Shown: one piece after another, positions 1,085 to 14,950 of the stretch
Layout: every line of letters starts with the position of its first letter
Position numbering within the stretch: position 1 is the first letter of the stretch
Assembly: GCA_009914755.4 (NCBI GenBank)
Contig: CP068257.2
Location: 34,272,001 to 34,336,000, forward strand
DNA: 64,000 nt
Source: the human T2T-CHM13v2.0 reference genome, Homo sapiens
Reading direction: 5' to 3'
Notes under the pieces: generated by a model
The model's input: the letters and a program-made list of their open reading frames with translations, nothing else
The model's database searches: none
Told to the model about the DNA's origin: nothing
Program-made: the position numbers and the translations under genes

Positions 1085-1827
1085 CTTGTCCGTTTTCATT
1101 AATCAAATTCTGCAGGGATGACTAAAATTTGACATAATGGTATAAATGGATTGTTAAGAATAACTTTAAGTTGAAGATTAAAGCAAGATGCCATTTTCCC
1201 CATGACTTCGATTTTGTTTACATTTTTTCCTTTAAGTTAGTATACACTACACATACATAAAATACAATAATATGACAACAAAAGGAATAAATGTTCTTAT
1301 TTTATAGAATAATAAAATGTCTGATATTGGGATATGACTGGTGGTGTTATATTCATAATTGTTGTAATAAAATTAGTAACTCCTAAAATTAATGGAATAC
1401 CTGCGAAGCGTAATGAGAAAATTGTAAGAGGCTCCTGCGTGTGCTAAATTTCCAACTAAAGCTGCTTATCCTGTCCCAGCTCCAGCTTCTACTAGTAAAG
1501 GGGCAAGCAGAAGTCAAAACGATGGTGAAAAAAGTCAGAAGCTTATATTGTTTATAAGAGAATGCTGTATCTCGGCTCAGTCATTTAGGGAGCTAATCAG
1601 TTACCAAGTCCTCTTATTTTAATTGGCATATCCATTAAAAGATTATTACAAATGCATGGGCAGTTATAATGACATAAATTTGATCATTGCCTAATAGGGC
1701 TCCTGGTTGACCCAGTTTGGCTCATATTAAGAGATTTATGTCAGTTCCTACTACTCTGGCTCAAGCACCGAATACTATAATGTGCCAATATCTTTGTGTT
1801 TGTTGAAAATAATCAATGATTAATCAA
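1085..1827 (-). pseudogene. MT-CO1-derived pseudogene fragment (about the first 700 nt of COI) within the NUMT
   Basis: The reverse complement from 1827 leftwards matches the human COI start (acaaacacaaagatattgg..., ..gcccatgcatttgtaataatc.., ..aacaatataagcttctgac.., ..gtagaagctggagctgggacagg..). It has frameshifts and stops. Similarity fades left of about 1100. Confidence 0.8.
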
Positions 1828-2151
1828 TATAGGTAGAAGAGTGAAATGGCTGAGGAAGCCTTAATCCGTAATCTAAAGACAGAGGTTGAACCCTCTTTTT
1901 ACTGTGCCTCAAGGTGAATAGTCACATCAAATTGCAAACTCAAAGATGCAGCTTCAATTCTGCCAGGGCTTCCCCTGCCCTTTTCTCTCAACAGCAGAAG
2001 TAGACTGAAGACAGGTGATTAGGGTATTTCACTGTTAATGAAATTTTCTTGAGGTTGGATACTACCAATCTAATGAGGATTTAGTTTAATTAAAATGTTT
2101 GATTTGCATTCAATTGATGTAAGATAGAGAGTGTTGCAGTCCTTAATTTTT
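1828..2151. pseudogene. Remnant of the mt tRNA cluster (tRNA-Tyr, tRNA-Cys, OriL, tRNA-Asn, tRNA-Ala) within the NUMT
   Basis: The reverse complement matches the human sequence between ND2 and COI (aaggactgcaa...catcaattgaatgcaaatca...ttaattaaactaa...gcagaattgaagctgc...gtaaaaagaggg...ctgtctttagatt...). The OriL stem is degraded. Confidence 0.6.
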
Positions 2152-2219
2152 CAGGAATAAAATATAAAATATTGCTTAGGGCTTTGAAGGCTTTTGGTCT
2201 GCCTAACCTAAATTCCTAA
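2152..2219 (-). pseudogene. mt tRNA-Trp-derived sequence (NUMT copy)
   Basis: The reverse complement aggaatttaggttaggcagaccaaaagccttcaaagccctaagcaat... matches human mt tRNA-Trp AGAAATTTAGGTTAAATACAGACCAAGAGCCTTCAAAGCCCTCAGTAAG.... Confidence 0.7.
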
Positions 2220-3217
2220 TCCAATGTTGAGAATACTGGTTTAAGTGGGAAGAAAAAGGCTGATAACAAAATAAGCGAGGGAAGGAAGAATGTTTATTTT
2301 ATATTTTCAAATTGTCATTTTGTTTTTATGTTATTGGTTTTGGGGAACGTCTTTAATGATGTAGAATAGATTAATCCCATACAAAAACATAAGTTGAGTA
2401 GGGCTTTGATGGTGATAAATGTTAGTATAATAACGCTGTTATTTTTTGTTAATTCTTGGCTAATAAGTCATTTGGTAAAAATCGTGTAAGAGGAGGTAGG
2501 TCTTTTGGAGATAATAGAAATATAAAGATATGGGAGTTATTAGTGATAACTTACCCCATGTATGTAATAATGATAATGTATGGGAGTTATATTTAAATTG
2601 AATAAATATGAATACAGTGATTATTAATATTTTGTAATTAGTAGATGTAACATTATTGTAGAAAGGTTGTAGGTTAGAGTGGACATTATTTAGTCTATAT
2701 GTGCAATTAATAGGCCAGAATTTTGTATAGTTATGCCTGATTTAGTCTTCCTCATTCTCCTATCAGAATTGATAATATAGCAGTAATTAATATTACATTT
2801 GGGTTAATTGATGATACTTGGAATTGAGATTAGTGCCAGTTTTTGTCATATTAATAAGATTATGCCTGATGTTATTGGAATTCCTTGTCTTACTTCTGGG
2901 ACTCAGAAATGGAATGGAGAAAGCCCACTTTTTATAATTACTGTTATAGTGATTATTACAGATGCTATTGGGTTGGGAATTTTTATGATTGTTCACTACC
3001 CAGAATATGATATATCAAGACACCTACTATTAGGACTGTAGATGCAGTTGTGTTAAGAAATATTTAGTAGCTGCTTCTTTGGATCATGAATTTAATTTTT
3101 TATTAAAATGAGAATAATGGCTAGTACATTTATTTCTAGTCCTATTCAGATTATTAATCAGTGCAAGCTAAATATTGTAAGTATAGTTCCTGTAAATTTC
3201 TGGCTCACGGTTCACAT
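2220..3217 (-). pseudogene. MT-ND2-derived pseudogene (essentially full length), with a frameshift and stops
   Basis: The reverse complement is collinear with human ND2 from near the start (..cac tga tta ata atc tga ata gga cta gaa ata aat.. vs CAC TGA TTT TTT ACC TGA GTA GGC CTA GAA ATA AAC) to the 3' end abutting tRNA-Trp. A 1-bp deletion in an A-run plus TAA/TAG stops make it non-functional. TGA codons sit at Trp positions. Confidence 0.85.
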
Positions 3218-3264
3218 CACTCTCTGTTATATAGTATACAGAGACATACGTATTATATATATAT

Positions 3265-3330
3265 GATATCTTTCTAAAAATAACCAATGAAATTGCTTTA
3301 GTAAGCATTGCCATGTCATTTTTGGAGGGA
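3265..3330 (-). pseudogene. Possible mt tRNA-Met remnant at the NUMT edge. tRNA-Gln and tRNA-Ile remnants further right (to about 3450) are uncertain
   Basis: The reverse complement contains ..tcattggttatttttagaaag.., resembling the tRNA-Met 3' part ATGTTGGTTATACCCTTCC. A TA-rich expansion separates it from the ND2 start. Confidence 0.3.
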
Positions 3331-5065
3331 GAAAGATAGGGAGCAAAGAAGGAAATGGGTAAGATGGGCCCCAATCTAAACCTCAGGTGTGCTTCCCACA
3401 AAAGGTTCCAGAGAGTCTCTGGATTCCCCACAACCAGAGAGCAACAGCAGGTGGAGTTAGATTGGAGATGAAAGCATTTCAGATAAATGTTTGTTGACTC
3501 ACATGTAAGGAGAAAATTTACCAGGCTGCCTAAGAGGAAAAGATCTTGGCCCAAACCTTTTCCTTAATCAATGGAAGAATCCCCATTTTCCCCCACTACA
3601 AAGAAAGGAGCAAAGAGCCAGCCACGAGGTGGTCAATCTGCACCAGCTCAGACATGAGTGCAAGGACATTCTATGGCCTGGAATCTTCAACGCACATGAA
3701 AAGGGCTTTTTCTATCCATAAATGGTAATGATCTACAACAATAGGGCTGTGACACTGGAAGATACCAATTCCTACATCTTGCTTTGCTGAGGACACTCAC
3801 GGTTTTAGCCTCAGACCTTCCTAGATTACATTTTAGCTTTAGTTCATATTCTCATATTTGTCCTAAATGTCAGCCTCTGATCAAGCTCATTAAACAGAGG
3901 CTGGCCCTTCCCACAGGGGGCTTATTATCTCAGCCAGACAATTCTTGCCAGTAGGCAAGAGGAAGAAGACAAGCAAACTTATAAGAGTTGTAAAGAATGG
4001 AACTGGGACCCAAATTATGAGCTAAGGCCTTGAGTAAACATATACAGAGGTTCCAGGTAAATGGTGATTCTGTTTACAGTGGAACAGGGCCTTCTTATCC
4101 AGGATTTCTCCTCCTAGCTGATCTGATTAGCAGCTCCTTATTCATATCTCCTGCTCCAAAGTTTTCCATTGCCACATATACAGGTAATGGTATTTTGCAC
4201 AAGAAGATAAGCATGATTCAATAGAGGTAGGAGGGTCTGGTAATCAGCTACAACATCAATTGCAATATATGATCACTAGTAACATTCCCAACAGGTGTGG
4301 CCCCACCTCTTCCTCTGCATGGAAAACAATTAATGGTATCTTTTTTGCTATCCTTGGATTGTGACTAAAGTATGAGGTGCTTTCATCATAATTAGAGGTG
4401 CTGTGTCACCAGGATCTATGTTAATGAGCAACCAGAACTTCCTGGAAGATAATAGCCCAAGAAGCAACCCACTGTCATCAGTGAAGAAGTGACTCTGGGA
4501 AGACGTTGGTGCTTGGTTGGTTTCCTGAGCCCGGCCCAGCCCAATCTGCAATATGTAGAGACCGCAACTGAAAAGGGAGGTTGTTTTCACTAACAATATC
4601 CAAGGCACTGAGGAAGGGGTGGCTCTGCTTCAGTGACCTTTCATGAAGTACACACCAGGTGAAAAGAGGAATTTGCTCCACAAAAAACTACACAGCTGTG
4701 GCTCCTAAGGGCTCCAAGTATCATCAGCACAAGCAGAGGAGATGGCGCCCAGGGCAGCAGCAGAGTGGCCTGGAGGGCAGGTGTCGCTCACCCCAGGGGT
4801 GGCAGATGGTCTCAGGTAGACCTGGATGACAACGGAGGAGTCTCTGCTGGCACCTTCCCAGGCATCAAGGAAATAAAATGGCAGCTGCCACACGGTAACT
4901 AAGCCCTGGAACCATTTAGGAGAAAGGTTTCTGAGGGCCAATGTCCCAAAGCAGCTAGAAAAATAAGGTCATCAATACTAGTGTGAACCTCTTTTAAGCC
5001 CCATGAGTTGTAAGATCTTAACCACAGTCTACAACTTCAAACTTTTTCTAGGATGTAAAAATTGT

Positions 5066-5406
<341 letters not shown>

Positions 5407-5734
5407 TCAGAGATTCCTTCTTCTCTGATCTCTCTTCAGAATCAGGTTTCACCAGCTTAACCTGAGACTTAAAGGTGCTGAAAAATGAAGGTTTCAGGTG
5501 AATAAATGGGACTGCAGAACAGAGATTGGCAGCTATCATTATAACCTAGTGCCAAAGGGGTTAGACCCATGGGTTCCACCTGTCTGGTGAATAATCACCT
5601 TCACTAAGAAGATGGTCATCTACCAGTTATGACCTGACATCCTACTCAATGCCTTCGAGTAGGAGAGTATAAAGAGTATAAAGAGGACTAGCTATCACTT
5701 CTCAGCTTTTGGCTAAGAACAAGTGAAGGGCACC

Positions 5735-5946
5735 GGCTTTGGAATTGTAAAGATATGAATTCAAATCCCAGTTCTTCTATTTGCTCATAGTATGAATTTT
5801 AACAAATTAGGTGACCTCTCTGCTTCTTGGATGCCTCAGCTATCACACAGAATATATCTAATGGGATATTTTGCAGGACTATTTTTCAGCGTTAAATTAA
5901 ACATGTCAAGCTTCTAACAGAATGCCTGACATATAGTAGTTGCCTT
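5735..5946 (+). mobile_element. MIR SINE fragment, followed by an A-run at 5947-5965
   Basis: ..attcaaatcccagttcttctatttgctcatag...gacctctctgcttc..cctcagc...aatgcctgacatatagtag resembles the MIR core and 3' end. Confidence 0.6.
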
Positions 5947-6387
5947 AAAAAAAAAAAAAAAAAAGTAGCTACTGCTATTAACTAGCCAACTTTCAACAGC
6001 TCCCCTTATACATAAAGTGGGCATGAAAGCAAATTAGAGCTGGATCCTACTAATGGGGGGCCAGGAACAGTAAATGTGTTTGGAAAGCCATAGGATTTGA
6101 GAGAGAAAATCTCACAGATGGCATGATCCAATTCTATCATTTTTTAGTTATAGAACAGAAGCTAAGTGTCAAAATTAGGCCATGCGGTCAATGAGAGACA
6201 GAACAGAACACAAATCCATGCTTGGCTATGGTTATGGGTTGAATTGTATGTTCCAGAATAAGATATGTTGGAGTCCTACCCCCAGAAGCTCCAAATGGCC
6301 TTACTTAGTAGGATCTTTACAGAGGTCATCAAGTGAAAAGGAGGTCCTTCGTATCATTCTCATGCCTTTGCATTCTCATAGCTTAGT

Positions 6388-6612
6388 TCCCACTTATGAA
6401 TGAGAACATGCGATGTTTGGTTTTCCATTCCCCTGGGGGAAAGGGTGGGAGGGGGTTGAGGGATAAAGGACTACAAATTTAGTTCAGTGTATACTGCTCA
6501 GGTGATGGGCTCACCAAAATCTCACAAGTCACCCCCAAAGAACTTACTCTTGAAACTACATACCACCATTTCCCCAAAAACCTATGGAAATAAAAAAATA
6601 ACAAATAAATAA
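6388..6612 (+). mobile_element. Old L1 (L1PB/L1MA-like) 3' end fragment
   Basis: ggtgatgggctcaccaaaatctcacaagtcacc..aaagaacttactc...ccccaaaaacctatggaaataaaaa is the characteristic 3' terminus of older L1 subfamilies. A short inverted piece (cccacttatgaatgagaacatg) sits at the 5' edge. Confidence 0.55.
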
Positions 6613-8140: not shown

Positions 8141-8752
8141 TTCATGAAATGGGGAGCCCAGAACACATTGACTGGGATAGATTTGGTCATTGTCCTATCA
8201 CCGTACTAAGGTGCTGGCCAGTAAGACGGTCTAAAGATAGAGGCATATCTTATACATATGACACACGAAGAAGAACCTCTATACAACTAAATTATTTTCA
8301 ATAATAATTATGTAATAATAAGCAACAACCATTATTTTCTTTAATTTTGCAGCAATTTAAAAAGTTAAAAATACATTTCTATTTTAAAAATTTTATTCAA
8401 ATTCAAGAAAATACTTAATGTATGAACTAAACTTTGCACTTACCAAACAAAAACATTTTACCTTGCAGCTCTCATTGTTTTATTTTAAAATTCATGTTAA
8501 TCAATGGGGAAAAGATTCCCTATTTAATAAATGGTGCTGGGAGAATTGGCTAGCCATATGCAGAAAATTGAAACTGGATCCCTTCCTTACACCTTATACA
8601 CAAGTTAACTCAAGATGGATTAAAGACTTAAATGTAAAACCCAAAACTATAAAAACCCTAGAAGAAAATCTAGGCAATACCATTCAGGACATAGGCATGG
8701 GCAAAGATTTTTATAATGAAATTGCCAAAAGCAATTGCGACAAAAGCCAAAA

Positions 8753-9678
8753 GCCGCCCCGTCCGGGAGGGAGGTGGGGGGGTCAGCCCCCCGCCCGGCC
8801 AGCTGCCCCATCCGGGAGGTGAGGGGCGCCTCTGCCCGGCCGCCCCTACTGGGAAGTGAGGAGCCCCTCTGCCCGGCCAGCCGCCCCATCCGGGAGGGAG
8901 GTGGGGGGGTCAGCCCCCCACCCGGCCAGCCGCCCCGTCCGGGAGGTGAGGGGCGCCTCTGCCCGGCTGCCCCTACTGGGAAGTGAGGAGCCCCTCTGCC
9001 TGGCCAGCCGCCCAGTCCGGGAGGGAGGTGGGGGGGTCAGCCCCCCGCCCGGCCAGCCGCCCCGTCCGGGAGGTGAGGGGCGCCTCTGCCCGGCTGCCCC
9101 TACTGGGAAGTGAGGAGCCCCTCTGCCCGGCCACCACCCCGTCTGGGAGGTGTACCCAACAGCTCATTGAGAACGGGCCATGATGACAATGGCGGTTTTG
9201 TGGAATCGAAAGAGGGGAAAGGTGGGGAAAAGATTGAGAAATCGGATGGTTGCCGTGTCTGTGTAGAAAGAAGTAGACATGGGAGACTTTTTATTTTGTT
9301 CTGTACTAAGAAAAATTCTTCTGCCTTGGGATCCTGTTGATCTGTGACCTTACCCCCAACCCTGTGCTCTCTGAAACATGTGCTGTGTCCACTCAGGGTT
9401 AAATGGATTAAGGGCGGTGCAAGATGTGCTTTGTTAAACAGATGCTTGAAGGCAGCATGCTCGTTAAGAGTCATCACCACTCCCTAATCTTAAGTACCCA
9501 GGGACACAAACACTGCGGAAGGCCGCAGGGTCCTCTGCCTAGGAAAACCAGAGACCTTTGTTCACTTGTTTATCTGCTGACCTTCCCTTCACTATTGTCC
9601 TATGACCCTGCCAAATCCCCCTCTGCAAGAAACACCCAAAAATGATCAATAAAAAAATAAAAAAAATAAAAAAAAAAA
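8753..9678 (+). mobile_element. SVA retrotransposon, 5'-truncated (GC-rich VNTR 8753-9160, SINE-R 9160-9650, poly-A 9651-9678), inserted inside the L1
   Basis: The VNTR has tandem units of about 37-49 bp (ccgccccgtccgggagggaggtgggggggtcagccccccgcccggccag.. alternating with ccgtccgggaggtgaggggcgcctctgcccggc(c/t)gcccctactgggaagtgaggagcccctctgcc). It is followed by canonical SINE-R sequence (..gggaggtgtacccaacagctcattgagaacgggccatgatgacaatggcggttttgtgg...ccaaatccccctctgc.agaaacacccaa.aatgatcaataaaaaa). Confidence 0.85.
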
Positions 9679-13034: not shown

Positions 13035-14950
13035 TAAAGATAAATGTTTTAAGCTGATAAACAACATCAGCAAAGTCTCAGGTACAAAATCAATGTGCAA
13101 AAATCACAAATATTCCTATACACCAATAATAGACAAACAGAGAGCCAAATCATGAGTGAACTCCCATTCAAAATTGCTGCAAAGAGAATAAAATACTTAG
13201 GAATACAACTTACAAGGGATGTGAAGGACCTCTTCAAGGAGAACTACAAATCACTGCTCAAGGAAATAAGAGAGGACACAAACAAATGGAAAAACATTCC
13301 ACGCTCATGGATAGAAAGAATCAATATCGTGAAAATGGCCATACCGCCCAAAGTAATTTATAGATTCAATGCTATCCCCATCAAGCTATCATTGACTTGC
13401 TTCACAGAATTGGAAAAAAACTGCTTTAAATTTCATATGGAACCAAAAAAGAGCCCATATAGCCAAGACAATCCTAAGCAAAAAGAACAAAGCTGGAGGC
13501 ATCATGCTACCTGACGTCAAACTATACTACAAGGTTACAGCAACCAAAACAGCATGGTACTGGTACCAAAACAGATACCTAGACCAATGGAACAGAACAG
13601 AGACCACAGAAAAAATGCTACACATCTACAACCAACTGATCTTTGACAAACCTGACAAAAACAAGCAGTGGGGAAAGGATTCCCTGTTTAATAAATGGTG
13701 TTGGGAAAACTGGCTAGCCATATGCAGCAAACTGACACTGGACCCCTTCCTTACACCTCATACAAAAATTAACTCAAGATGGATTAAAGACTTAAATGTA
13801 AGACCTAAAACCATAAAAACCCTAGAAGAAAATCTAGGCAATACCATTCAGGACATAGGCATGGGCAAAGACTTCATGACTAAAACACCAAAAGCAATGG
13901 CAACAAAAGCCAAAATTGACAATGGGATCTAATTAAACTAAAGAGCTTCTGCACAGCAAAAGAAACTATTATCAGAGTGAACAGGCAACTTACAGAATGG
14001 GAGAAAATTTTTGCAATCTATCCATCTGACAAAGGGCTAATATCCAGAATCTACAAGGATATTTAAATAAGTTTACAAGAAAAAAACAAACCACCCCATC
14101 AAAAAATGGTGAAGGATATGAACAGACACTTCTCAAAGGAAGATATCTATGCGGCCAACAAACATAAGAAAAAAAGTTCATCATCACTTGTCATTAGAGA
14201 AATGCAAATCAAAACCACAATGAGATGCCATCTCACGCCAGTTAGACTGGTGATCATTAAAAAGTCAGGAAACAACAGATGCTGGAGAGCATGTGAAGAA
14301 ACAGGAATGCTTTCACACTGCTGGTGGGAGTGTAAATTAGTTCAACCTTTGTGGAAGACAGTGTGGTGATTCCTCAAGGATCTAGAAGCAGAAATATCAT
14401 TTGACCCAGCAATCCCATTACTGGGTATATACCCAAAGGATTATAAATCATTCTACTATAAAGACACATGCACACGTATGTTTACTGCAGCACTATTCAC
14501 AATAGCAAAGACTTGGAACCAACCCAAATGGCCATCAATGATAGACTGGATAAAGAAAATGTGGCACATATACACCATAGAATACTATGCAGCCATAAAA
14601 AAAGAATGAGTTGATGTCCTTTGCAGGGACATGGATGAAGCTGGAAACCACCATTCTCAGCAAACTAACGCAGGAACAGAAAACCAAACACCACATGTTC
14701 TCACTCATAAGTGGGAGGTGAACAATGAGAACACATGGACACAGGGAGGGGAACATCACACACCAGGGCCTGTTGAGGGGTGGAGGAATAGGAGAGGGAT
14801 AGCATTAGGAGAAATACCTAATGTAGATGACGGGTTGATGGGTGCAGCAAACCACCATGGCCCATGTATACCTATGTAACAAACCTGCAAGTTCTGCACA
14901 TGTATCTCAGAACTTAAGGTATAATAAAAAATATATATATATATAAATGT
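13035..14950 (+). mobile_element. L1PA-like LINE-1 3' portion (ORF2 C-terminal about 1.6 kb plus 3'UTR), 5'-truncated
   Basis: Translations [51 protein letters not shown].. and ..[59 protein letters not shown].. are L1 ORF2. The 3' end is ..ggtgcagcaaaccaccatggcccatgtatacctatgtaacaaacctgcaagttctgcacatgtatctcagaacttaaggtataataaaaa. Confidence 0.9.

What the first reader, a model, noticed from the sequence alone, without database searches (positions are those of the whole stretch)
1085..3450. Ancient NUMT: about 2.3 kb of mitochondrial genome (COI-tRNAs-OriL-ND2) embedded in reverse orientation
Read on the minus strand, 1085-3330 is collinear with the mitochondrial segment running tRNA-Met / ND2 / tRNA-Trp / Ala-Asn-OriL-Cys-Tyr / COI. 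Highly conserved COI and ND2 blocks are directly recognisable. The implied reading frames use TGA at conserved Trp positions, which makes sense only under the vertebrate mitochondrial code, so this is a transferred organellar sequence and not a nuclear gene. Identity to modern human mtDNA is only about 70-80%, and there are several frameshifts and stops (for example a 1-bp loss in the ND2 A-run, and TAA/TAG codons). Together these point to an old insertion, probably pre-dating the hominoid radiation. The NUMT strand is distinctly more AT-rich and C-poor than the human L-strand, which suggests the donor was an ancestral mt genome with different base composition. The NUMT edges fade at about 1085 on the COI side and about 3330-3450 on the tRNA-Met/Gln/Ile side, and no clean junction is visible. 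Old NUMTs preserve snapshots of ancestral mtDNA and can contaminate mtDNA PCR and heteroplasmy calls.
Basis: partly seen in the sequence, partly recalled or inferred. Interest (0 to 1): 0.5.

Follow-up and report, generated by a model that had tools for sequence, protein, structure and literature searches.

The report
Old catalogued mitochondrial fossil on chr21

Summary
The NUMT is real. Window 1319-3197, read on the minus strand, is collinear with mtDNA from ND2 codon ~14 through tRNA-Trp/Ala/Asn, OriL, tRNA-Cys/Tyr to COI nt 542 (blastn E 1e-110 against human, bit score 710 against cow). It is 1.88 kb, not 2.3 kb. The proposed fading edges (1085-1318, 3198-3450) and tRNA-Met/Gln/Ile have no mitochondrial similarity. 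Identity to human mtDNA is 66%, not 70-80%, and it is closer to sifaka, horse, cow and colugo (68-71%). It has 13 frameshifting indels and 10 stops, and 12 of 15 conserved Trp codons are still TGA. It is already catalogued as HSA_NumtS_552 (hg19 chr21:37,262,572-37,264,422), with syntenic entries in chimpanzee and rhesus. Neutral decay is 14% at sites invariant in nine mt genomes, even across codon positions, and exceeds that of AluJ copies in the same window (13.4% vs 10.3% non-CpG). The NUMT shares essentially none of the catarrhine or anthropoid-stem changes and falls on the Euarchontoglires side, outside anthropoids. Insertion was therefore roughly 65-90 Myr ago. The AT-rich, C-poor composition is partly nuclear C>T decay and mostly a C-poor donor. 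Novelty: already known. Interest is low.

The parts
1319..3197 (-). Whole NUMT (HSA_NumtS_552): mtDNA from ND2 nt ~40 to COI nt 542, corresponding to rCRS ~4509/4535-6444
   Evidence: Single collinear blastn HSPs against six mt genomes. MAFFT alignment with 9-12 mt genomes. The catalogue entry has an identical length of 1851 bp for 1319-3169.
2220..3197 (-). ND2 pseudogene fragment (codon ~14 to the end)
   Evidence: The stitched translation hits mammalian ND2 at E 6.5e-101 (PF00361/PF06444 proteins) and PDB complex I ND2 chains. It carries 8 frameshifting deletions and 6 in-frame stops, and 8 TGA at 10 conserved Trp codons.
2150..2219 (-). tRNA-Trp copy (anticodon TCA)
   Evidence: ARAGORN -mtmam. 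Weak Rfam tRNA hit at 2152-2217, 21 bits.
2074..2146 (+). tRNA-Ala copy (anticodon TGC), L-strand encoded as in mtDNA
   Evidence: ARAGORN -mtmam. Rfam tRNA 33 bits, above the gathering score.
2010..2075 (+). tRNA-Asn copy (anticodon GTT)
   Evidence: ARAGORN -mtmam -ps. Aligned with mt tRNA-Asn.
1969..2000 (-). Remnant of the light-strand origin (OriL) stem-loop, with the stem degraded by C>T changes
   Evidence: Aligns to the conserved CTTCTCCCGCC...GGCGGGAGAAG motif of nine mammals.
1905..1971 (+). tRNA-Cys remnant
   Evidence: Aligned column by column with mt tRNA-Cys. ARAGORN no longer recognises it.
1840..1904 (+). tRNA-Tyr copy (anticodon GTA)
   Evidence: ARAGORN -mt. Rfam tRNA 29.6 bits.
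1831..1839 (-). 9-nt tRNA-Tyr/COI intergenic spacer (CTTCTACCT). Human, baboon, colugo and rabbit mtDNA have a similar spacer; cow, goat, dog, horse and mole do not.
   Evidence: Alignment block 1600-1700.
1319..1830 (-). COI pseudogene fragment (nt 1-542)
   Evidence: Alignment. First and second codon positions are 80-87% identical to mt COI. It carries 5 frameshifting deletions and 4 stops, and 4 TGA at 5 conserved Trp codons.
1085..1318 (.).
   Evidence: No mt similarity. The junction reads ...TTTTATAGAATAATAAAATG|TCTGATATTGGG.
3198..3450 (.). Nuclear flank with a short (TA)n run, not mitochondrial; no tRNA-Met
   Evidence: No mt similarity. Sequence.

Best explanation
A 1.9-kb fragment of mitochondrial DNA (ND2 from codon ~14, tRNA-Trp, Ala, Asn, OriL, tRNA-Cys, Tyr, and the first 542 nt of COI) was captured in an AT-rich intergenic stretch of what is now human chromosome 21. 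By inference from established knowledge of NUMT formation, this happened during end-joining repair of a double-strand break. The donor was the mt genome of a human ancestor living at about the origin of primates, roughly 65-90 Myr ago: after the Euarchontoglires/Laurasiatheria split and before the accelerated, C-enriching evolution of anthropoid mtDNA. The copy has since drifted neutrally at the nuclear rate. It accumulated about 0.16 substitutions per site, with a GC-to-AT bias, and 24 indels, and it has no function. It is the catalogued NUMT HSA_NumtS_552. Shown here: mitochondrial origin, extent, pseudogene state, neutral decay, catalogue identity, syntenic catalogue entries in chimpanzee and rhesus, and placement outside anthropoids. 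Inferred: the insertion mechanism and the absolute age.
For: Mitochondrial origin and collinearity. Nuclear context: 10 matches to an Alu motif and 16 Alu copies in the window, and non-mitochondrial flanks. Catalogue identity: chr21 minus strand, mt 4535-6444, 1851 bp, which equals window 1319-3169. Chimpanzee Ptr_Numts_609 and rhesus Rhm_Numts_080 lie in the same order as the neighbouring NUMTs. Neutrality: at 901 columns invariant in nine mt genomes the NUMT differs at 128 (14.2%, JC 0.158). The rate is alike across partitions (COI pos1 10.9%, COI pos2 13.4%, ND2 pos1 12.4%, ND2 pos2 14.2%, tRNA/OriL 15.8%), with C>T 40 and G>A 22. There are 13 frameshifts and 10 stops. Age: non-CpG decay is 13.4% against 10.3% for four AluJ, 6.0% for eleven AluS and 3.5% for one AluY in the same window. 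Of the sites where human and baboon share a state against sifaka and the outgroups, the NUMT has the catarrhine state at 7 and the ancestral state at 39, which is at the homoplasy background (similarly 6 of 28). Sifaka plus catarrhines exclude the NUMT in 90% of LogDet bootstraps. The NUMT groups with Euarchontoglires in 97% of transversion bootstraps. In the ND2 protein tree it lies outside anthropoids, next to colugo. ND2 amino-acid identity is 58% to sifaka, colugo and horse, 50-52% to catarrhines and 47-49% to platyrrhines.
Against: The NUMT-versus-AluJ difference is only about 2 standard errors. Placement relative to crown primates is not resolved: quartet counts are 16 / 11 / 7, not significantly unequal. 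No tarsier or platyrrhine mtDNA and no non-boreoeutherian outgroup could be obtained. Rooting and the polarity of the tRNA-Tyr/COI spacer are therefore assumed. Orthology in chimpanzee and rhesus is inferred from catalogue coordinates and neighbour order, not from aligned flanks.
Confidence: 0.8

Rival explanations
1. The NUMT is much older: it was inserted before the Boreoeutherian or eutherian radiation (over 90-100 Myr ago) and is shared with non-primate mammals.
For: JC decay of 0.158 per site is about what I recall for the neutral length of the human lineage back to the boreoeutherian ancestor (from memory, not computed here). The NUMT is as close to Laurasiatheria as to any primate. Huang and Frith (bioRxiv 10.1101/2025.03.14.643190) report 90 pre-eutherian human NUMTs, the strongest with E 6.3e-100 and shared with sloth. 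Its identity is not given, so it could be this one. Without an outgroup, the split 'NUMT + Euarchontoglires | Laurasiatheria' also fits attachment at the root.
Against: Transversion NJ puts the NUMT inside Euarchontoglires, next to colugo and primates, and not on the central branch (97% and 82% bootstrap). It carries the tRNA-Tyr/COI spacer seen in human, baboon, colugo and rabbit but absent from five laurasiatherians. It has the Euarchontoglires-type LPPLTxFLPKW motif where cow, sheep and pig ND2 have LPPLSGFMPKW. No ND2-COI NUMT is catalogued on mouse chr16, which is weak evidence given fast rodent decay.
Confidence: 0.12
2. The NUMT is younger: it was inserted on the anthropoid or catarrhine stem (about 30-45 Myr ago) and looks old only because of a locally high mutation rate.
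For: The only direct presence data are human, chimpanzee and rhesus. AT-rich regions can evolve faster.
Against: A donor from that time would carry most of the changes shared by human and baboon, and the NUMT carries them only at background level (7 versus 39; 6 of 28). At four anthropoid-stem amino-acid changes it has none of the derived states: two are ancestral and two are other residues. Alu copies in the same window give a local clock, and the NUMT has decayed more than AluJ and twice as much as AluS. The inferred donor C content of 23% does not fit C-rich anthropoid mtDNA at 31-32%.
Confidence: 0.06
3. It is a secondary copy: a nuclear duplication of a NUMT that was first inserted elsewhere.
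For: Some human NUMTs are known to have spread by segmental duplication (general knowledge). Other catalogued NUMTs overlap the same mt interval, for example HSA_NumtS_376 on chr10.
Against: No catalogue entry seen here shares its end-points (mt 4535-6444). The flanks are unique-looking AT-rich sequence, and there is no second copy in the window. This was not tested genome-wide.
Confidence: 0.02
4. It is not a nuclear insertion at all, but mtDNA contamination or misassembly, or a chance resemblance.
For: None.
Against: Identity is 66% with 24 indels, and the segment is embedded between non-mitochondrial flanks in Alu-rich primate DNA. E-values run from 1e-110 to 0. Entries at the same locus exist independently in the hg18 and hg19 catalogues, with syntenic entries in panTro2 and rheMac2.
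Confidence: 0

Closest known systems
HSA_NumtS_552 of the RHNumtS.2 compilation / UCSC NumtS track (Simone et al. 2011, PMC3228558; Calabrese et al. 2012, PMC3314570)
   Same: It is the same locus: chr21, minus strand, rCRS 4535-6444, 1851 nuclear bp (hg18 36,184,442-36,186,292; hg19 37,262,572-37,264,422). This is exactly the span of my blastn HSP against human mtDNA (window 1319-3169). The catalogue HSP identities are 69.4% and 67.2%.
   Different: BLAST split the catalogue entry into two HSPs with an unaligned middle (mt 4891-5509). Alignment to less derived mt genomes shows that it is continuous and extends ~28 bp further into ND2 (to window ~3197, rCRS ~4509), as in the chimpanzee entry. 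The catalogue gives no age.
Primate-ancestral and older orthologous NUMTs (Uvizl et al. 2024, PMC10764098; Huang and Frith 2025, bioRxiv 10.1101/2025.03.14.643190)
   Same: It belongs to the same class: a highly diverged NUMT (~65-70% identity) that pre-dates ordinal or subordinal splits and decays neutrally.
   Different: Those studies assign age from orthology across genomes, which I could not test. The cross-order examples aligned by Uvizl et al. are short (228-342 bp), whereas this one is 1.9 kb. I could not establish whether this locus is in their lists (no hit in the supplements held).
Recent, high-identity human NUMTs (for example the 5.8-kb chr1 NUMT, PMC3000329)
   Same: They share the origin (mtDNA captured into nuclear DNA) and the lack of function.
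   Different: Those copies are over 90-98% identical to modern mtDNA and do confound mtDNA PCR and heteroplasmy calls. At 66% identity this one will not (inference).

Membership tests
NUMT (nuclear mitochondrial DNA segment) | Significant similarity to mtDNA that is collinear over several genes in mitochondrial gene order | tested here: met
   Single HSPs of 1.85-1.88 kb, with E from 1e-110 to 0, against six mt genomes. The order is ND2-W-A-N-OriL-C-Y-COI.
NUMT (nuclear mitochondrial DNA segment) | Embedded in nuclear chromosomal sequence | tested here: met
   The flanks have no mt similarity. The window holds 16 Alu copies and L1 ORF2 fragments. It maps to chr21 in published catalogues.
NUMT (nuclear mitochondrial DNA segment) | Reading frames make sense only in the mitochondrial code and are disrupted (pseudogene) | tested here: met
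   12 of 15 conserved Trp codons are TGA. There are 13 frameshifting indels and 10 stops in the mitochondrial frame.
NUMT (nuclear mitochondrial DNA segment) | Evolves without the constraint pattern of functional mtDNA | tested here: met
   Decay at mt-invariant sites is alike at codon positions 1 and 2 and in the tRNAs (11-16%).
Pre-anthropoid (primate-ancestral or older) NUMT | Orthologous copy present in platyrrhines, tarsiers and strepsirrhines | not testable with these tools
   No primate nuclear assemblies were available. Only catalogue entries for chimpanzee and rhesus could be read.
Pre-anthropoid (primate-ancestral or older) NUMT | Branches off the host mt lineage below the anthropoid stem | tested here: met
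   Shared catarrhine states are at background level. There are no anthropoid-stem amino-acid states. NJ places it outside anthropoids, and in 90% of LogDet replicates outside sifaka plus catarrhines.
Pre-anthropoid (primate-ancestral or older) NUMT | Neutral decay at least that of the oldest primate-wide repeats nearby | tested here: met
   Non-CpG decay is 13.4% against 10.3% for AluJ in the same window. The Alu consensus sequences were recalled from memory.
Exapted NUMT / functional nuclear mt-tRNA look-alike | tRNA or other segment conserved above the neutral rate | tested here: not met
   The tRNA/OriL block has the highest decay, not the lowest (15.8%). tRNA-Cys is no longer recognisable. 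Expression was not testable.
Recent NUMT or mtDNA assembly contamination | Over 95% identity to the host's present mtDNA | tested here: not met
   66.0% identity to human mtDNA, whose ND2 protein is identical to YP_003024027.

The most novel reading that the evidence does not exclude
The insertion pre-dates crown primates: it comes from a stem-primate or early euarchontan ancestor, or is even older. If so, this 1.9-kb segment is one of the longest surviving fossils of a mt genome from before the anthropoid rate acceleration and C-enrichment. It would allow a direct estimate of the ancestral composition (C about 23%) and of the tRNA-Tyr/COI spacer state, and would give a presence/absence marker for deep Euarchontoglires nodes.
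Probability: 0.45. Interest if true: 0.35.

Novelty: already known. Interest (0 to 1): 0.15.

Why it matters
It matters little for new biology. NUMTs are a well-understood class, and this locus has been in the UCSC/RHNumtS catalogues since 2008-2011. Its modest value is as a long, old molecular fossil. It records a C-poor mt genome from before anthropoid mtDNA accelerated and shifted in composition (Kitazoe et al. 2008, PMC2553178, describe that shift). Its presence or absence in strepsirrhines, colugos and tree shrews would be a clean marker for deep nodes. In practice it is too diverged to disturb mtDNA PCR or heteroplasmy calling.

Tried and rejected
1. Default ARAGORN (bacterial mode) found no tRNAs. 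The mitochondrial mode run in Python was needed.

2. Viral-contig scans for mt motifs found nothing.

3. A genome-contig scan for tRNA-Met returned only human, horse and two unidentified laurasiatherian mt contigs mis-binned in bacterial assemblies. No new primates were found.

4. I tested whether the window holds RUNX1 exons, which would follow if the catalogue coordinates were hg19. There was no hit, and the paper confirms the coordinates are hg18.

5. I looked for this locus in the supplements of Uvizl et al. 2024 and Tsuji et al. 2012. Nothing was found or held. The supplements of Huang and Frith are too small to hold coordinates.

6. Strict amino-acid synapomorphy counts with platyrrhines and strepsirrhines gave too few sites (2-4 per node) to be decisive on their own.

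7. Fetching the orthologous nuclear locus of other species through a neighbouring gene was not possible, because ORF listing found no protein-coding exon in the window.

8. No query could be designed that would bring tarsier or an afrotherian/xenarthran outgroup into the top 120.

Full report
**What is there**

Read on the minus strand, window ~1319-3197 is visibly mitochondrial. ARAGORN in mammalian mitochondrial mode finds tRNA-Trp (2219-2150, minus strand) and tRNA-Ala (2074-2146, plus strand). In its relaxed or general modes it also finds tRNA-Asn (2010-2075, plus) and tRNA-Tyr (1840-1904, plus). Rfam's tRNA model hits 2075-2145 (33 bits, above the gathering score) and 1840-1904 (29.6 bits). 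This is the vertebrate WANCY cluster in the correct order and strand pattern, with a degraded OriL stem-loop and tRNA-Cys between Asn and Tyr. A frame-stitched ND2 translation retrieves mammalian ND2 proteins at E 6.5e-101 and the ND2 chains of solved complex I structures.

**Reference mtDNA**

No mt database was provided, so I collected references in three ways.
- From the ND2 hits I fetched colugo (NC_004031), dog, horse, mole and, later, Propithecus coquereli mtDNA.
- A scan of metagenome contigs for the conserved OriL/tRNA-Cys motif returned mt contigs.
- I identified those contigs by exact ND2 look-up as human (identical to YP_003024027), Bos, Capra and rabbit. A later search identified one more as a baboon (98% to Papio anubis ND2).

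**Extent and significance**

Against every reference, blastn gives one collinear minus-strand HSP. It starts exactly at window 1319 (COI nt 542) and ends at 3169-3197 (ND2 nt ~40-67). E is 1e-110 against human and 0 (710 bits) against cow. Nothing else in the 64 kb matches mtDNA.

Windows 700-1318 and 3198-3900 have no mt similarity, even with permissive scoring (best E 0.22). Smith-Waterman scores of the flanks against the adjacent mt segments are indistinguishable from shuffles. Those segments were tRNA-Ile/Gln/Met plus the ND2 5' end, and downstream COI.

The NUMT is therefore 1.88 kb, not 2.3 kb. It contains no tRNA-Met/Gln/Ile, and its COI-side junction is sharp against an AT-rich flank (...TTTTATAGAATAATAAAATG|TCTGATATTGGG). 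This fits the A+T-oligomer flanks reported for NUMTs by Tsuji et al. 2012 (PMC3467031).

**Identity and pseudogene state**

Ungapped identity to each reference:

| Reference | Identity (%) |
|---|---|
| human | 66.0 |
| baboon | 65.9-66.3 |
| colugo | 68.0-68.6 |
| rabbit | 68.7-68.8 |
| cow | 69.8-70.1 |
| horse | 70.2-70.8 |
| sifaka | 70.3 |

There are 24 indel events, 13 of them frameshifting (8 in ND2, 5 in COI). One is the 1-bp loss in the ND2 A-run near 3099-3104. There are 10 stops in the mitochondrial frame. Of 15 conserved Trp codons, 12 are still TGA, 1 is TGG and 2 are TAA.

**Already catalogued**

The RHNumtS.2 table lists HSA_NumtS_552: chr21, minus strand, rCRS 4535-6444, hg18 36,184,442-36,186,292, 1851 bp, with HSP identities of 69.39% and 67.23%. 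The hg19 coordinates are 37,262,572-37,264,422. 1851 bp is exactly the span of my HSP against human mtDNA (1319-3169). The window is therefore human chr21, plus strand, starting near hg19 37,261,254.

The same paper's chimpanzee and rhesus tables hold matching entries:
- Ptr_Numts_609: chr21, minus strand, 1882 bp, 67.4%.
- Rhm_Numts_080: chr3, plus strand, 1861 bp, 67.8%.

Each lies in the same order and spacing relative to the neighbouring NUMTs. The locus therefore pre-dates the ape/Old World monkey split on catalogue evidence. No ND2-COI NUMT is listed on mouse chr16, which is uninformative given rodent decay rates.

**Neutral decay**

At 901 alignment columns invariant in nine boreoeutherian mt genomes, the NUMT differs at 128 (14.2% ± 1.2, JC 0.158), plus 26 gapped columns. 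The rate by partition:

| Partition | Sites differing (%) |
|---|---|
| COI position 1 | 10.9 |
| COI position 2 | 13.4 |
| ND2 position 1 | 12.4 |
| ND2 position 2 | 14.2 |
| tRNA/OriL | 15.8 |

This evenness is the signature of unconstrained evolution after transfer. The spectrum is GC-to-AT biased (C>T 40, G>A 22, A>G 20, T>C 12). The tRNA copies are not conserved above background, so nothing suggests exaptation.

**Composition**

The NUMT has 19.8% C and 67% A+T, against 31.6% C in human over the same columns. I applied the inverse of the decay matrix estimated at invariant sites. This gives a donor with C 23.2% (bootstrap 95% interval 21.0-25.4), lower than all nine extant references (24.5-31.6%). 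A human-like donor would now show about 25.9% C.

About a quarter to a third of the C deficit is therefore nuclear decay, and the rest reflects a C-poor donor. This fits the known acceleration and compositional shift of mt genes on the lineage to simians (PMC2553178).

**Age**

Three lines of evidence agree.

1. Local clock. The NUMT shows 13.4% at non-CpG invariant sites (118/883). It is at least as old as the AluJ copies, the oldest dimeric Alu family, which is common to all primates (textbook knowledge).

2. Shared derived states. At 28 sites human and baboon share a state against seven unanimous non-primates. The NUMT has the ancestral state at 21 and the catarrhine state at 6, which is close to the ~14% homoplasy seen for single-taxon changes. 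With sifaka added, the quartet patterns are: 'catarrhine alone' 39, NUMT+catarrhine 7, NUMT+sifaka 11, NUMT+outgroup 16. At the few clean anthropoid-stem amino-acid changes defined with six platyrrhines, the NUMT never has the derived residue.

3. Trees.
   - LogDet NJ recovers sifaka plus catarrhines to the exclusion of the NUMT in 90% of replicates.
   - Transversion NJ places the NUMT inside Euarchontoglires (97%), next to colugo (82%).
   - An ND2 protein tree with 6 catarrhines, 6 platyrrhines, 2 lemurs, colugo, 3 Glires and 6 laurasiatherians puts it beside colugo (64%), inside Euarchontoglires (78%) and never with anthropoids.

The NUMT also keeps a 9-nt tRNA-Tyr/COI spacer like those of human, baboon, colugo and rabbit. 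That spacer is absent from cow, goat, dog, horse and mole.

The donor must lie on the human ancestral line. It therefore sits between the Euarchontoglires ancestor and roughly the crown-primate ancestor or the earliest haplorhine stem, about 65-90 Myr ago. 'Pre-dating the hominoid radiation' is true but far too conservative.

**What remains open**

Placement just inside or just outside crown primates is unresolved: quartet counts of 16 / 11 / 7 are not significantly unequal. I had no tarsier mtDNA, no platyrrhine DNA and no outgroup to Boreoeutheria. An older, pre-boreoeutherian insertion is therefore not excluded. Huang and Frith (2025 preprint) report such NUMTs in human, including one strong hit shared with sloth whose identity is not given. 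Orthologous nuclear loci could not be fetched with these tools.

**Mechanism and function**

By analogy with what is established for NUMTs, a fragment of mtDNA was ligated into a chromosomal break by end joining (inference; no pre-insertion allele was available). It has since evolved as neutral DNA. It is a molecular fossil, not a working element. At 66% identity it should not interfere with mtDNA PCR or read mapping (inference).

**Verdict**

It is already catalogued. Three specifics need correcting: the extent, the identity to human mtDNA and the supposed tRNA-Met. Novelty: already known. Interest is low.

Noticed in passing
L047, L048, L049, L050, L051 (genome-contig loci): Mammalian mtDNA contigs sit inside public 'bacterial' assemblies. 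Human mtDNA (99.8-99.9%) is in a Francisella MAG and in Actinomadura cremea JCM 3308. Horse mtDNA (99.4%) is in a Chlamydiaceae MAG. Two other laurasiatherian mt genomes (16.6-16.7 kb) are in Vampirovibrio and Lachnospiraceae MAGs. All are host or reagent contamination.
   Followed up: partly
L037 (metagenome contig OOCQ01019723.1) and L005: L037 is only 92.3% identical to human mtDNA over 826 bp of the WANCY-COI region. L005 is 98.3% identical over 1.6 kb. Either could be ape mtDNA or a younger human NUMT present in a metagenome assembly.
   Followed up: no
L007 (ERZ808240 contig): A baboon mt contig (ND2 98% identical to Papio anubis) turned up in a metagenome assembly. Its exact ND2 sequence is not in the protein collection.
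   Followed up: yes
window 53429-53892: A complex C/A-rich minisatellite with units of ~45 bp nested in 185-230 bp periods. It gives long spurious His/Thr-rich ORFs (53300-53923) and a strong negative GC skew at 52-54 kb.
   Followed up: no
window 8418-9150: An L1 ORF2-like ORF fragment runs into a GC-rich tandem array with a 127-bp period (3.1 copies, 94% match) that resembles an SVA-type VNTR. Further L1 ORF2 fragments lie at 13095-13932.
   Followed up: no
window 37024-37345: A 320-bp AT-only minisatellite (25-bp unit, about 13 copies).
   Followed up: no
window 5074-63381: The 64 kb holds sixteen near-full-length Alu copies: one AluY-like, eleven AluS-like and four AluJ-like. I used them as a local clock.
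   Followed up: yes
window 3168-3554 (minus strand): A 128-aa ORF under the bacterial code spans the ND2-side junction of the NUMT. It is a chance ORF across unrelated sequence, not a gene.
   Followed up: no
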